This document shows positions 20,761 through 30,134 of a stretch of 64,000 nt of DNA, one piece after another. This DNA is from a phage. Under the pieces are notes generated by a model. That model worked only from the letters and a program-made list of their open reading frames with translations. It ran no database searches and was not told where the DNA came from. Both the position numbers and the translations under genes were made by a program. Each line of letters opens with the position of its first letter. The first letter of the stretch is position 1. The stretch lies in the sequence record PZ386972.1. One strand, written 5' to 3'.

Positions 20761-21195
20761 ATGGGTACGAATATGCTTCGTGTGCTGCGAGAATTAATTG
20801 AAAAAGCTCGCAAACACGGTGATACTGTGTCAGTCAAGCACCTTAGTACGATTTTAGGCGACTTACAACGAATTGATAAAGATTGCGTATCTAGACTAGA
20901 GTTTACTAACTGGGTTAAATCACAGTTCAAAGCAATTGAGAATACAATGACTTCTGCTGCAAAAGCAAATATCGAATATACTCCAGATGCTGAATATCTC
21001 GACTTGTTAGCAGGTCTAGAGCATGAATATGCTCTGGAGCAGTTAACTGAAGTTCAGATTCGTGAGTATTTTGCAGAACTGGTTAAATTAAACCCAGGTA
21101 TTACCAAAGCTCTATTAATGAAAACTATTAAGGCAGAATTTCCTGGACGTTATGATGGTAAAACAACTGCTTTGATTGCTAGTGAATTTTTCTAA
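20761..21195 (+). CDS. hypothetical protein
   Basis: ORF track. Confidence 0.45.
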   Translation: MGTNMLRVLRELIEKARKHGDTVSVKHLSTILGDLQRIDKDCVSRLEFTNWVKSQFKAIENTMTSAAKANIEYTPDAEYLDLLAGLEHEYALEQLTEVQIREYFAELVKLNPGITKALLMKTIKAEFPGRYDGKTTALIASEFF

Positions 21196-28128: not shown

Positions 28129-28250
28129 CAAAATTTCAGTGCAGAACACGGAGCTAGCAATTCGGAAGTGCTGACTCATGATAGGCTGCCTATGTACTTG
28201 CGAAGCGGTCGTGTCCAAGACTCGGACTCTTGCACTGAAAACAATCAAAC

Positions 28251-28368
28251 ATTCTAGCGTGGTTGATGGGGAAACCAGCTTGGCTAGGGCAGAAGCTCGT
28301 TCGATTCGAGTGAAAGAATGGTTCTCGTAAGTCCGCACAAGTGATAACAGGTTCGAGTCCTGTCTAGA
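28251..28368 (+). ncRNA. 118-nt tRNA-like RNA: perfect 7-bp acceptor-like stem and canonical T-arm, no encoded CCA
   Basis: 5' ATTCTAG pairs with 3' CTAGAAT; T-arm ACAGG-TTCGAGT-CCTGT; internal second TTCGATT hairpin. Confidence 0.35.
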
Positions 28369-28383
28369 ATGACACTATAAAGT

Positions 28384-28494
28384 TTACTTATTATGTAGGT
28401 TCCGATAGATCGGCGGGTCTATTCTGGCATTTAAGAGAGGTCTCGCAAACTTCTTTGTCAGCCGTGGGGTTGATAGCCTCCAGGTGGCCTACAC
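28384..28494 (+). ncRNA. about 110-nt structured RNA closed by terminal helix
   Basis: 5' TGTAGGT pairs with 3' GCCTACA; internal hairpins; no ORF. Confidence 0.3.
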
Positions 28495-28520
28495 AATAAG
28501 TAAATTTATTAAAAATTCAT

Positions 28521-29004: not shown

Positions 29005-29026
29005 CCAATTTCAAGAAAAACGCAGT

Positions 29027-29054
29027 TGCTTGATGCTTAATTTCTTGTTATAAT
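29027..29054 (+). promoter_or_regulatory. T5-type early promoter
   Basis: TTGCTT-16-TATAAT. Confidence 0.55.
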
Positions 29055-29104
29055 ATTTATATAAATTGATGAGGATTTCTCCTCATCATAGTTCACTAAG
29101 GTAT

Positions 29105-29268
29105 TAGCTCGACCTAGGACTGGCTGCCAAAAAGCACGATCCCTACGATTCGGGAGAAGTTCTAGATTAGTCCACTAGATTCAGCGGCAACTGAATAGTG
29201 TATCGGGTTTGCGAGATGACGCGGTTCCTTCCGCTCGAAGCGAAGGTGCTGTAGTTACGCCGAGCTAA
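29105..29268 (+). ncRNA. about 165-nt structured RNA closed by TAGCTCG/CGAGCTA helix
   Basis: Long-range complementary 7-mers plus internal hairpins; no ORF. Confidence 0.3.
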
Positions 29269-29292
29269 TAGCCTTAGTAAACTAAAGAATTT

Positions 29293-29368
29293 GGGGAATG
29301 GGTCTGCATGGAGTGGACACCTCGCTTGCACCGAGGACATCAGAACGGTTCGATTCCGTTATTCTCCA
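29293..29368 (+). tRNA. tRNA-Ala (anticodon TGC)
   Basis: Acceptor GGGGAAT/ATTCTCC with G3-U70 wobble, anticodon stem CCTCG/CGAGG, loop CTTGCAC, T-arm AACGG-TTCGATT-CCGTT, CCA encoded. Confidence 0.75.
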
Positions 29369-29376
29369 CCAAATAC

Positions 29377-29450
29377 GCGTGATTGATGGAATTGGCATAC
29401 ATACCGTCCTTAGAAGTCGGGTTTTGAGGGTTCGAATCCCTTGTCACGCA
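29377..29450 (+). tRNA. tRNA with TAG anticodon (Leu by anticodon) but class I architecture
   Basis: Acceptor GCGTGAT/GTCACGC, loop CTTAGAA, 5-nt variable loop, T-arm GAGGG-TTCGAAT-CCCTT, discriminator A, CCA encoded; weak D stem. Confidence 0.5.
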
Positions 29451-29453
29451 CCA

Positions 29454-29565: not shown

Positions 29566-29653
29566 GGAAGAGCAAATCGAATTGGCGACGAAAACCGCTT
29601 GGAAAGTGGCTGACTGGTAAAACGGCTTGAGAGTTCAAATCTCTCCTCTTCCG
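29566..29653 (+). tRNA. tRNA-Ser (anticodon GGA), class II
   Basis: Acceptor GGAAGAG/CTCTTCC, loop TTGGAAA, long variable arm, T-arm GAGAG-TTCAAAT-CTCTC, CCA encoded. Confidence 0.7.
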
Positions 29654-29668
29654 CCAAACAATTTATAT

Positions 29669-29760
29669 GGTAGGTCAATCCAATGGCTGGCGCTGGACTC
29701 CGACTTGAAATCGGTTGATCGTAGTGATACGGTGTAAGGGTTCGATCCCCTTACCTACCT
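29669..29760 (+). tRNA. tRNA-Ser (anticodon TGA), class II
   Basis: Acceptor GGTAGGT/ACCTACC, loop CTTGAAA, long variable arm, T-arm AAGGG-TTCGATC-CCCTT, CCA encoded. Confidence 0.7.
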
Positions 29761-29764
29761 CCAA

Positions 29765-29910
29765 GTCTTGAAGTATGCCGGAATCGGTAGACGGGGCTGC
29801 CTAAAAGGTTTATAGGGAACATCCACTCCCTACAACATACCTCATAAAGCGGCTGAGATAAATGGTCTATCTCGTGAAGGTTCAAGTCCTTCTGCTTCTT
29901 GATACATCTA
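29765..29910 (+). ncRNA. about 145-nt structured segment with D-arm-like and T-arm-like hairpins but no complete cloverleaf
   Basis: GAGATA-AATGGTC-TATCTC and GAAGG-TTCAAGT-CCTTC hairpins; no CCA. Confidence 0.25.
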
Positions 29911-30014
29911 TGGCTCAAAGTGTAACGGTGCTATTTGATGCTCTTAGTAAGACTTTCCCGACATGCGTTCGGGAGTAAGCTGCTAAGGCTAGAATAGAAG
30001 AGTTTCTGAGAGCC

Positions 30015-30134
30015 GCCACAATTGAAAATTCGTACTCGTCTTGAGCTGCGTGCAATAGGAGATAACTTGATTAGTATTCTAGAACATGCTAATTGAGGAT
30101 GGTTTCGCTAACCCTGCGAGTTTTCAATTGTGGC
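30015..30134 (+). ncRNA. structured element closed by a perfect 14-bp helix whose 3' strand overlaps the 5' end of tRNA-His
   Basis: GCCACAATTGAAAA at about 30015-30028 is the exact reverse complement of TTTTCAATTGTGGC at about 30121-30134. Confidence 0.4.

What the first reader, a model, noticed from the sequence alone, without database searches (positions are those of the whole stretch)
29076..29290. Structured spacer upstream of tRNA-Ala with long-range TAGCTCG/CGAGCTA pairing
About 200 nt with no ORF, beginning with a GAGGATTTCTCCTC hairpin and closed by complementary 7-mers about 160 nt apart; located between a promoter and tRNA-Ala, so it must be transcribed as part of the tRNA precursor.
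Basis: seen in the sequence. Interest (0 to 1): 0.4.

Follow-up and report, generated by a model that had tools for sequence, protein, structure and literature searches.

The report
Phage T5 stable RNA "2H" gene
The "spacer" is the gene for RNA 2H, a roughly 190-base pseudoknotted non-coding RNA with its own promoter that is conserved across T5-like phages, was annotated long ago as a stable RNA, and still has no known function.

Summary
TAGCTCG (29105-29111) and CGAGCTA (29261-29267) pair, and they lie inside a 22-bp closing helix (29090-29111 with 29261-29283) that carries an invariant bulged G. The hairpin at 29067-29088 also exists.

The region is not a spacer. It is 98% identical to the misc_RNA "RNA2H" of phage T5, which the BF23 record notes as a "stable RNA with unknown functions". 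It sits behind promoter P13b and ahead of tRNA-Ala and tRNA-Leu.

A covariance model found homologues in six Demerecviridae lineages: T5/Epseptimavirus, Enterobacter KKP_3711, Klebsiella Sugarlandvirus, Providencia, Proteus and Pectobacterium. None was found in bacterial genomes, E. coli, Rfam or the phage T4 tRNA region.

Across 24 sequences, 93.6% of proposed pairs hold, against 42% or less for shifted controls, and 43 of 62 pairs show compensatory changes. The distant homologues replace part of the minimum-energy fold with a 5-bp pseudoknot and a loop-strand "kissing" contact. Two peripheral hairpins are freely exchanged between phages.

The function is not shown. My best inference is that the RNA is cut out at the closing helix and acts in trans as a stable accessory RNA. 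A cis-acting leader role for the downstream tRNA-Leu operon is the main rival. The entity is already known; the structure and the family-wide distribution are new detail.

The parts
29026..29054 (+). Sigma-70-type promoter P13b: -35 TTGCTT at 29026-29031, a 17-nt spacer, -10 TATAAT at 29049-29054.
   Evidence: Aligns with the 'promoter P13b' feature of T5 and BF23. The same TTGCT(T/A)...(TG)ATATAATATTTATAT block precedes the RNA in the T5-like, KKP_3711 and Klebsiella lineages, and a TGATATAAT box precedes it in My1. The consensus scan did not call it.
29067..29088 (+). 5' leader hairpin: 9-bp stem TGATGAGGA/TCCTCATCA with loop TTTC.
   Evidence: Present with different stem sequences in T5-like phages, KKP_3711/L064 and My1. 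Absent in Klebsiella phages and in the L009-L013 recombinants.
29090..29283 (+). RNA 2H unit, 194 nt. The T5-annotated mature RNA corresponds to 29102-29273.
   Evidence: 98.3% identical to T5 misc_RNA rna2H. Covariance model scores are 233 bits on the + strand and 31 bits on the - strand. Mosaic breakpoints fix both ends.
29090..29111 (+). P1 5' strand: lower part 29090-29101, upper part 29102-29111.
   Evidence: Pairs with 29261-29283. 97% of cells are paired and 12 of 22 pairs show compensatory changes across 24 sequences. Intact in all nine lineage representatives.
29261..29283 (+). P1 3' strand: 29261-29270 and 29272-29283, with an invariant bulged G at 29271.
   Evidence: The bulged G is present in all nine representatives.
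29117..29121 (+). Pseudoknot strand S1a (GGACU).
   Evidence: Pairs with 29169-29173. 100% paired in 24 sequences, and 4 of 5 pairs change on both sides. Kept in Providencia, Proteus and Pectobacterium.
29122..29139 (+). Conserved A-rich joining strand GGCUGCCAAAAAGCACGA. UGCC at 29125-29128 is the kissing partner of the P4 loop.
   Evidence: Nearly invariant in T5-like phages. The (N)CC-A-rich pattern is kept in all lineages.
29140..29155 (+). P3, a variable hairpin (UCCC/GGGA here).
   Evidence: Replaced by UUGCAA/UUGCAA plus a 23-nt insert, or by other stems, in other phages. All 4 pairs covary and 96% of cells are paired.
29161..29179 (+). S2 hairpin (UCUAG 29161-29165 with CUAGA 29175-29179). 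Its 9-nt loop carries pseudoknot strand S1b (AGUCC, 29169-29173).
   Evidence: The loop layout (3-4 nt, then 5 paired, then 0-1 nt) recurs in every lineage.
29180..29195 (+). P4 hairpin (UUCAG/CUGAA). GGCA in its loop (29186-29189) pairs with UGCC at 29125-29128.
   Evidence: The stem covaries: ACGC/GCGU, AGGU/ACCU, CUGAC/GUCAG, GGAU/AUCC. The loop contact covaries: UGCC/GGCA, UACC/GGUA, CGCC/GGCG, UUGC/GCAA.
29196..29210 (+). Joining strand UAGUGUAUCGGGUUU.
   Evidence: AGUGUA is invariant in the 24 aligned T5-like, KKP_3711 and Klebsiella sequences. It is not kept in Providencia.
29211..29260 (+). P6, a long exchangeable hairpin of the 'v1' type found in T5 and BF23.
   Evidence: The base GCG/CGC shows C-G, U-A, A-U and G-C at its middle pair. 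Most Epseptimavirus, KKP_3711 and Klebsiella phages carry a different P6 with the invariant tip loop UGGCUAAU.
29284..29453 (+). 9-nt trailer AAAGAATTT, then tRNA-Ala(UGC) at 29293-29371 and tRNA-Leu(UAG) at 29377-29453, in the same transcription unit.
   Evidence: tRNA-Leu follows the RNA directly in My1 and L064, after tRNA-Ala in T5-like and Klebsiella phages, and after a small CDS in KKP_3711, Providencia and Proteus. The UAG anticodon was read in this window, KKP_3711, FFH1, S126, PM135 and My1.

Best explanation
Shown: window 29090-29283 is the gene for RNA 2H, a non-coding RNA of T5-like phages (Demerecviridae) with its own promoter. Its two ends form a 22-bp helix with an invariant bulged G. 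The interior folds into a compact core made of four elements:
- a 5-bp pseudoknot between an upstream strand and the loop of a hairpin;
- a 3-4-bp contact between the strand (U)GCC and the GGC(A) loop of the next hairpin;
- an A-rich strand;
- two peripheral hairpins (P3, P6) that phages swap freely.

Inferred: the RNA is made as the first element of the P13b transcript, which continues into tRNA-Ala and tRNA-Leu. It is then released in two steps. RNase P cuts at the 5' end of tRNA-Ala. A double-strand-specific cut, of the RNase III kind, is made in the closing helix. The ends annotated in T5 (window 29102 and 29273) are staggered exactly as such a cut would leave them. This yields a stable RNA of about 172 nt.

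Because the core is held constant while the periphery is exchangeable, I take the core to be a specific binding surface. I take the RNA to act in trans as a stable accessory RNA, a partner or decoy for a host or phage factor. It would be useful in natural hosts but dispensable in the laboratory. Neither the factor nor the effect is known.
For: Identity:
- 96-98% identity to T5 rna2H, in the same position between P13b and tRNA-Ala.
- The BF23 record notes it as a 'stable RNA with unknown functions'.

RNA on the + strand:
- No ORF.
- Many G-U pairs that would be A-C mismatches on the other strand.
- Model score of 233 bits on + against 31 bits on -.

Structure:
- 93.6% of cells paired against 42% or less for slid controls; 43 of 62 pairs have double changes; 0 of 500 shuffles reach the observed values.
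- Pseudoknot S1 is 100% paired, with 4 of 5 pairs covarying.
- The whole architecture recurs in nine representatives of six lineages.

Discrete module:
- Fixed boundaries despite different upstream and downstream neighbours.

Own promoter in four lineages.

Processing:
- The T5-annotated ends are position 13 and position 184 of 194. That is a 5' end at U13 and a 3' end reaching two base-pair steps past its partner, plus the bulged G.

Accessory role:
- FFH1 carries a natural internal deletion of the RNA.
- T5 mutants with non-essential deletions in this tRNA region form plaques and were used in PARIS assays. Their published coordinates appear to span RNA2H (PMC11464382).
- The region is a deletion hotspot (PMC12483538).
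Against: - No experiment on function exists, and none could be run here.
- I could not establish whether the T5-annotated ends were measured or modelled.
- The RNA lies next to its promoter and upstream of tRNA-Leu in every lineage examined. This fits a cis-acting role equally well.
- No partner protein gene is consistently adjacent.
- The conserved P6 tip loop UGGCUAAU is missing in the T5 type carried by this window, so not every conserved surface is essential.
- That the T5 deletions cover RNA2H rests on my assumption that the coordinates in the paper and in AY692264 coincide in this region.
Confidence: 0.5

Rival explanations
1. Cis-acting leader of the tRNA-Leu operon. The folded RNA works only on its own transcript. 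It could protect the 5' end, organise processing of the downstream tRNAs, or modify RNA polymerase so that it reads through the highly structured tRNA array, as the put RNAs of phage HK022 and the EAR RNA of Bacillus do. Its accumulation as a stable RNA would then be a by-product.
For: - A promoter directly precedes the RNA in the T5-like, KKP_3711, Klebsiella and My1 lineages.
- tRNA-Leu lies downstream on the same strand in all six lineages.
- The 5' end of the transcript is always buried in a helix, either the leader hairpin or P1 itself.
Against: - A pseudoknotted fold of about 190 nt with an invariant core is far more than 5' protection needs.
- In the L009-L013 type recombinants the promoter and hairpin are gone, yet the RNA is kept intact.
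- A cut in P1 would separate it from the downstream transcript.
- No terminator-like site lies between it and the tRNAs.
Confidence: 0.25
2. Decoy for tRNA-directed host factors. The RNA displays tRNA-end-like features: an internal (G/A)CCA bound by a UGG(C/U) loop, much as RNase P and T-box RNAs bind NCCA, and a GCC 3' overhang after processing. It would soak up a tRNA-targeting defence nuclease or a tRNA-processing enzyme, alongside the phage tRNAs that are known to counter such defences.
For: - The gene sits among tRNA genes, of which T5 tRNA-Lys neutralises PARIS and T5 tRNA-Tyr rescues retron Eco7 toxicity (PMC11464382; PMC10644984).
- The NCC(A)/(U)GGN complementarity covaries.
- Other T5 stable RNAs in the same cluster are tRNA-like. 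RNA I ends in GCCA, and RNA2 has a GGUUCGAAUCC T-arm.
Against: - No tRNA model matches the region.
- The overhang is GCU, not GCC, in Providencia and Proteus phages.
- Rescue from PARIS mapped to a different fragment, carrying tRNA-Pro, fMet, Lys and Val.
- The NCCA/UGGN pairing is most simply an internal tertiary contact.
Confidence: 0.12
3. Catalytic RNA. The invariant pseudoknotted core is a ribozyme, for example one that releases the RNA from the precursor.
For: The fold is compact, with two long-range contacts and invariant joining strands, as in small ribozymes. The ends are defined.
Against: - No match to any ribozyme family in Rfam at E up to 10, for this RNA or for its distant homologues.
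- The annotated ends lie inside a regular helix. This is typical of a protein nuclease, not of self-cleavage.
Confidence: 0.05
The complementary (U)GCC strand and GGC(A) loop pair between molecules rather than within one, building a ring or chain on some phage machine.
For: - The size (about 172 nt), a helix formed by the 5' and 3' ends, and two complementary 4-nt elements that covary resemble what I recall of phi29 pRNA.
- Covariation cannot tell intramolecular from intermolecular pairing.
Against: - No match to the pRNA family in Rfam.
- From general knowledge, T5-like phages package DNA with a conventional terminase, and pRNA is confined to phi29-like phages.
- The RNA is dispensable.
Confidence: 0.03
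5. Passive transcribed spacer, or an element that works at the DNA level, with no function as RNA.
For: It is non-coding and lies between genes.
Against: - Compensatory changes preserve 43 of 62 pairs across lineages whose sequences otherwise differ by 25% or more.
- The G-U pairs are strand-specific.
- The RNA is retained in six lineages.
Confidence: 0.02

Closest known systems
RNA 2H (rna2H) of bacteriophages T5, BF23 and DT571/2, as annotated in GenBank AY692264, NC_042564/AJ604530 and KM979355
   Same: Orthologous: 98% identity over the 172 annotated bases, the same promoter (P13b) upstream and the same tRNA-Ala and tRNA-Leu downstream.
   Different: Nothing essential differs. The window lacks T5's tRNA-Val before the promoter, and the loop of its leader hairpin is inverted. 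The GenBank records give only coordinates, and the BF23 note reads 'unknown functions'. The fold, the pseudoknot and the family-wide distribution are worked out here.
Phage T4 species 1 and species 2 RNAs (rnaC, rnaD)
   Same: These are also small, stable, non-tRNA RNAs of unknown function, embedded in a lytic coliphage's tRNA gene cluster and co-transcribed with the tRNAs.
   Different: They are not homologous. The RNA 2H model finds nothing at rnaC/rnaD, and the best hits in the T4 tRNA region are hairpins of 12 bits or less elsewhere. They are also shorter, at 139 and 119 nt.
Other T5 stable RNAs in this window: RNA2, RNA IV, RNA1, RNA I, RNA III
   Same: Same cluster, same strand, same 'unknown function' annotation.
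   Different: There is no sequence or model similarity. The BF23 record labels RNA1 and RNA2 'tRNA-like'. RNA2 has a T-arm-like GGUUCGAAUCC, RNA I ends in GCCA, and the RNA1 region resembles a tRNA with a long insert. RNA 2H is larger and has none of these features.
Precursor processing stems cut by RNase III (bacterial rRNA operons, T7 early RNAs)
   Same: A helix of 20 bp or more is formed by the sequences flanking a stable RNA. The annotated mature ends are staggered with a 3' overhang inside that helix.
   Different: Cleavage by RNase III has not been demonstrated for this RNA. The lower stem sequence CUAAGG/CCUUAG and the bulged G are far more conserved than a mere cleavage site would need.
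Cis-acting antitermination RNAs (HK022 putL/putR; Bacillus EAR)
   Same: A structured RNA that lies next to its promoter at the head of a long transcription unit. From what I recall, EAR is also pseudoknotted.
   Different: No sequence or model similarity was found in Rfam. No effect on read-through is known. RNA 2H is annotated as accumulating as a separate stable species.

Membership tests
T5 RNA 2H (stable RNA of the Tequintavirus tRNA gene region) | Sequence homology to the annotated rna2H of T5 and BF23 | tested here: met
   98.3% identity over all 172 nt, mapping to window 29102-29273. 96% identity over the 233 nt that include the flanks.
T5 RNA 2H (stable RNA of the Tequintavirus tRNA gene region) | Position: downstream of promoter P13b, upstream of tRNA-Ala and tRNA-Leu1 | tested here: met
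T5 RNA 2H (stable RNA of the Tequintavirus tRNA gene region) | Accumulates as a stable RNA in infected cells | not testable with these tools
   Rests only on the GenBank note 'stable RNA with unknown functions'. No paper describing the RNA was found in the library.
tRNA or tRNA-like RNA | Cloverleaf with a T-arm and D-arm recognised by tRNA models | tested here: not met
   ARAGORN and Rfam RF00005 tRNAs each in the window but nothing in 29090-29283, even at E up to 10.
Any curated RNA family in Rfam 15 (6S, Y RNA, RNase P, tmRNA, SRP, riboswitches, ribozymes, pRNA, and others) | Covariance-model match | tested here: not met
   No hit on the + strand within the RNA at E up to 10 for the window copy. 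Only chance-level hits of E 2.1 or worse, to unrelated families, for the Klebsiella-type and KKP-type homologues.
Phage T4 rnaC/rnaD | Homology in sequence and structure | tested here: not met
   Model R2 with filters off finds nothing at L072 1409-1672.
Riboswitch or other cis-regulatory 5' leader | An aptamer followed by an expression platform (terminator/antiterminator or a sequestered RBS), with a P1 helix that can open | tested here: not met
   No + strand terminator-like site lies between the RNA and tRNA-Ala. P1 is a 22-bp helix. What follows the RNA varies: a tRNA in some phages, a CDS with its own RBS in others.
RNase III processing stem | Helix of about 20 bp or more formed by flanking sequences | tested here: met
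   22 bp, conserved by covariation in all lineages.
RNase III processing stem | Staggered cleavage on both strands by RNase III, leaving a 2-nt 3' overhang | tested here: inconclusive
   The T5-annotated ends (positions 13 and 184) have this geometry. I could not establish whether they were measured, and the enzyme is untested.
phi29-type packaging RNA | 5'/3' helix plus two loops with covarying complementarity | tested here: met
   P1, plus UGCC/GGCA, which covaries as UACC/GGUA, CGCC/GGCG and UUGC/GCAA. One partner here is a joining strand rather than a hairpin loop.
phi29-type packaging RNA | Homology to pRNA and association with a phi29-like packaging motor | tested here: not met
   No Rfam pRNA hit. 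The host genome is a Demerecviridae siphovirus.

The most novel reading that the evidence does not exclude
RNA 2H is the founding member of a new class of functional phage RNA. Its invariant pseudoknot and kissing core would bind, and disable or redirect, a specific host factor, such as an RNA-targeting defence effector or an RNA-processing enzyme. Alternatively it would itself be catalytic. Either way the mechanism would be unlike any described phage non-coding RNA, and it would make the decades-old puzzle of 'stable RNAs in phage tRNA clusters' experimentally tractable in a model phage.
Probability: 0.3. Interest if true: 0.75.

Novelty: already known. Interest (0 to 1): 0.45.

Why it matters
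T5 is a model phage, and its tRNA region has recently been shown to encode counter-defence tRNAs. Several non-tRNA stable RNAs in that region have had no function assigned in the records or in the papers I could search, and RNA 2H has no curated RNA family.

Three results here make it a well-defined target for deletion and compensatory-mutation genetics, for pull-downs and for structure determination:
- it is conserved across at least six Demerecviridae lineages;
- it has a covariation-proven pseudoknotted core;
- it behaves as an independent module.

If it proves to be an anti-defence or host-takeover RNA, it would add an RNA-based mechanism to a field dominated by proteins. If it is only a leader, it would still be an unusually elaborate one.

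Tried and rejected
1. The minimum-energy fold, and the RNAalifold consensus from T5-like sequences only, predicted three helices: CCUAGGAC/GUUCUAGA, a GCU/AGC hairpin, and a small UCG/CGA helix. None of the three survives in the Klebsiella or KKP_3711 homologues. I replaced them with the S1/S2 pseudoknot, an unpaired A-rich strand and the P6 base.
2. Rfam at gathering and at permissive thresholds, for the window and for two distant homologues: nothing.
3. Paralogues in the window: none. There is also no similarity to the other T5 stable RNAs.
4. Host homologue: none in 5,426 E. coli genomes by blastn. Two pattern scans of 185,579 species genomes gave nothing and one chance match respectively.
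5. Wider relatives: scans of IMG/VR and of metagenomes gave only T5-like, Klebsiella-like or KKP-like copies, or chance hits.
6. A tRNA-like NCC 3' end: weakened, because Providencia and Proteus have GCU there.
7. Antisense targets within the window: only one 13-mer, in a part of the RNA that is not conserved, which is about chance level.
8. Homology to T4 rnaC/rnaD: none.
9. Literature: no paper in the library mentions RNA2H. The T5 papers found deal with tRNAs and deletions, not with this RNA.
10. Vibrio-infecting Demerecviridae were not examined. A protein search meant to list them did not return them among the rows shown.

Full report
**What the window is.** The 3 kb around the finding matches 614 phage records. 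The best is Salmonella phage SCF at 99.7%, and all the top hits are T5-like phages. ARAGORN and Rfam each tRNAs on the + strand of the window, 20 of them shared. The window is therefore the tRNA gene region of a T5-like phage (Demerecviridae).

**Checking the observation.** TAGCTCG is at 29105-29111 and CGAGCTA at 29261-29267. Such a pair occurs once in the window and in none of 100 shuffles.
- The 7-mers are the inner part of a 22-bp helix. 29090-29101 pairs with 29272-29283, and 29102-29111 pairs with 29261-29270, with one bulged G at 29271.
- GAGGATTTCTCCTC (29071-29084) is the centre of a 9-bp hairpin at 29067-29088.
- No + strand ORF of 20 aa or more lies in the region.
- The stretch folds at -84.4 kcal/mol, z = -5.6.
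The natural unit is 29090-29283, and the hairpin lies outside it.

**Identity.** The region is 96% identical over 233 nt to phage T5 (AY692264), where it carries the features 'promoter P13b' and misc_RNA 'RNA2H'. The 172-nt T5 feature maps to window 29102-29273 at 98.3% identity. The neighbouring T5 stable RNAs are also present in the window:
- RNA2 at 28250-28374
- RNA IV at 28393-28495
- RNA1 at 29767-29911
- RNA I at 29912-30018
- RNA III at 30023-30128

No paper in the library mentions RNA2H.

**A module, not a spacer.** 427 phage records hold a homologue. In an alignment of representatives, the RNA always starts at AGTTCAC and ends at AAACT. This holds in three different situations:
- The promoter and hairpin are replaced by unrelated sequence downstream of a CDS (L009-L013).
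- The next gene is a small CDS instead of tRNA-Ala (Ace, 3-29, PRF-SP13).
- Phage FFH1 has deleted the interior.

Two internal hairpins are swapped between phages. P3 occurs as UCCC/GGGA or as UUGCAA/UUGCAA with a 23-nt insert. P6 occurs in two unrelated sequence versions. Meanwhile about 50 nt of core are invariant.

**Distant homologues.** A covariance model built from 27 T5-like sequences found no paralogue in the window. It did find clear homologues in Enterobacter phage KKP_3711 (82 bits) and in Klebsiella Sugarlandvirus phages (67-69 bits). A second model with a corrected structure found three more:
- Providencia phage PSTCR5, a Priunavirus, at 62 bits.
- Pectobacterium phage My1, Mccorquodalevirinae, at 52 bits.
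- Proteus phage PM135, a Novosibvirus, at 37 bits.

Searches elsewhere gave nothing new:
- Scans of IMG/VR and of metagenomes returned only these types or chance hits.
- Scans of 185,579 species genomes returned nothing real.
- E. coli genomes hold no match.
- Rfam has no family for the window copy or for the distant homologues.
- The model does not match T4 rnaC/rnaD.

The family therefore spans Demerecviridae of enterobacterial hosts, and I found it nowhere else. Vibrio-infecting members were not checked.

**Structure.** The distant homologues overturn part of the minimum-energy fold. They do not conserve the helix CCUAGGAC/GUUCUAGA, the small GCU/AGC hairpin or the UCG/CGA helix predicted from T5-like sequences. 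The conserved elements are these:

| Element | Window coordinates | Notes |
|---|---|---|
| P1 | 29090-29111 with 29261-29283 | 22 bp, bulged G at 29271 |
| S1 pseudoknot | 29117-29121 GGACU with 29169-29173 AGUCC | Partner lies in the loop of S2 |
| S2 hairpin | 29161-29165 with 29175-29179 | 9-nt loop |
| Kissing contact | 29125-29128 UGCC with 29186-29189 GGCA | Partner lies in the loop of P4 |
| P4 hairpin | 29180-29184 with 29191-29195 | |
| P3 hairpin | 29140-29155 | Variable |
| P6 hairpin | 29211-29260 | Long, exchangeable |

On 24 distinct sequences from four lineages, 93.6% of cells form standard pairs, against 30-42% when partners are slid by 1-3 columns. 43 of 62 pairs show changes on both sides, and no shuffle out of 500 reaches the observed values.
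- S1 is 100% paired, with 4 of 5 pairs covarying.
- P1 is 97% paired, with 12 of 22 pairs covarying.

A check of nine representatives, adding Proteus and Pectobacterium, confirms every element:
- S1 appears as GGACU/AGUCC, GAACC/GGUUC, GAGUC/GACUC, GAGCC/GGCUC, GAACC/GGUUU and GAGUC/GGCUC.
- The kissing contact appears as UGCC/GGCA, UACC/GGUA, (C/A)ACC/GGUA with its first pair broken, UGCC/GGCG, CGCC/GGCG and UUGC/GCAA.
- The bulged G is present in all nine.

Many pairs are G-U on the + strand, and the model scores 233 bits on + against 31 on -. The structure therefore belongs to the + strand RNA.

**Expression context.** A near-identical promoter block, TTGCT(T/A)...(TG)ATATAATATTTATAT, precedes the RNA in the T5-like, KKP_3711 and Klebsiella lineages. 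My1 has a TGATATAAT box in the same place. In Klebsiella phages the promoter abuts the RNA. In T5-like phages, KKP_3711 and My1, a leader hairpin of differing sequence is inserted between them. Downstream, tRNA-Leu follows in every lineage, either directly, after tRNA-Ala, or after a small CDS. The UAG anticodon was confirmed where it was read.

**How it most likely works.**

What is shown: this is a separately promoted, conserved, compactly folded non-coding RNA gene.

What is inferred:
- The RNA is released from the P13b transcript by RNase P at tRNA-Ala and by a double-strand-specific cut in P1. The T5-annotated ends (positions 13 and 184 of 194) leave a 5' end at U13. The 3' end reaches two base-pair steps past U13's partner, plus the bulged G, which is the geometry of an RNase III product. 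I could not establish whether those ends were measured.
- The invariant core against an exchangeable periphery suggests a specific binding surface and action in trans.
- The function is accessory. FFH1 has lost the RNA. T5 mutants with non-essential deletions in this tRNA region form plaques and were used in PARIS assays, and their published coordinates appear to cover it (PMC11464382). The region is a deletion hotspot (PMC12483538). In that work, rescue from PARIS mapped to a different fragment, so RNA 2H is not that factor.

The main rival is a cis-acting leader for the tRNA-Leu operon. The constant position next to the promoter and the constant synteny support it. The size of the fold, its retention without the promoter, and the likely cut in P1 count against it. 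The remaining rivals score lower: a tRNA-end decoy, a ribozyme and a pRNA-like multimer. A passive spacer is excluded by the covariation.

**Comparison with known systems.** The element is RNA 2H of T5, so it is already known as an entity. It resembles T4 species 1 and 2 RNAs in context but is not homologous to them. It is not tRNA-like by any model. It has no riboswitch-type expression platform.

**Verdict.** The object is a previously annotated stable RNA of unknown function, not a new discovery. What this analysis adds is the corrected, covariation-supported pseudoknotted fold, the family-wide distribution and the modular behaviour. Interest is moderate (0.45). It would be high if a trans-acting or catalytic function were demonstrated.

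Noticed in passing
window 29071-29084: The centre of the leader hairpin is inverted here (GAGGATTTCTCCTC, loop TTTC) relative to most other T5-like phages (GAGGAGAAATCCTC, loop GAAA). Only two metagenome contigs (L056, L061) share the window's version. It looks like a flip of the palindrome's centre.
   Followed up: partly
window 28250-28495 and 29767-30128: Five further T5 'stable RNAs of unknown function' are present: RNA2, RNA IV, RNA1, RNA I and RNA III. RNA I ends in an acceptor-like helix plus GCCA. RNA2 has a tRNA-type T-arm. None has an Rfam family above threshold.
   Followed up: partly
window 29566-29652 and 29669-29759: Two long-arm tRNA-like sequences that ARAGORN does not call. 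They match only the tRNA-Sec model, below threshold (19.7 and 37.6 bits against a gathering score of 47). They lie where T5 has tRNA-Ser2 and tRNA-Ser1, but only the 3' half of Ser1 aligns, at 84%. The T5 HNH endonuclease gene between tRNA-Leu and tRNA-Ser2 is absent here.
   Followed up: partly
L069 26694-26861 and L070 25227-25286: In Providencia PSTCR5 and Proteus PM135, the RNA is preceded by a conserved hairpin (GUGAG...CUCAC in one, GUGGG...CCCAC in the other). This is followed by CUUUAAU(C/U)AACU, a copy of the RNA's own P1 3' strand, which could compete for the P1 5' strand. It may be a remnant of a tandem copy or an alternative pairing.
   Followed up: no
L071 about 32703 onward (Pectobacterium phage My1): A tRNA-Leu(UAG)-like sequence (ggggttatgctgg...cttagaat...) directly follows the RNA. 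It lies in a stretch where the My1 record annotates nothing.
   Followed up: no
L042 399-611 (Klebsiella phage vB_Kpn_3): A chimeric copy. The 5' half is Klebsiella-type and the 3' half, from GGGTTTG onward, is T5/Epseptimavirus-type, so several P1 pairs are broken. This is either a recombinant pseudogene or an assembly artefact in a 'partial genome' record.
   Followed up: no
L035 6611-6790 (Enterobacter phage KKP_3711): Directly after the RNA comes GGAGG-N6-ATG and a short cysteine-rich ORF (MFLIKTTNWKCNCGCN...CKKCKSH...) that the record does not annotate. T5-like phages Ace and 3-29 have an unrelated 264-nt CDS in the same position.
   Followed up: no
window 20761-21195: A YqeY/GatB-like protein, labelled 'tRNA amidotransferase' (PHROG 1460), is encoded just upstream of the tRNA region. 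It is conserved in Providencia, Proteus, Pectobacterium and Vibrio Demerecviridae.
   Followed up: partly
window 29088-29067, minus strand: Read on the minus strand, the leader hairpin followed by ATTTATATAA meets the simple terminator criteria. No minus-strand gene nearby would use it.
   Followed up: no
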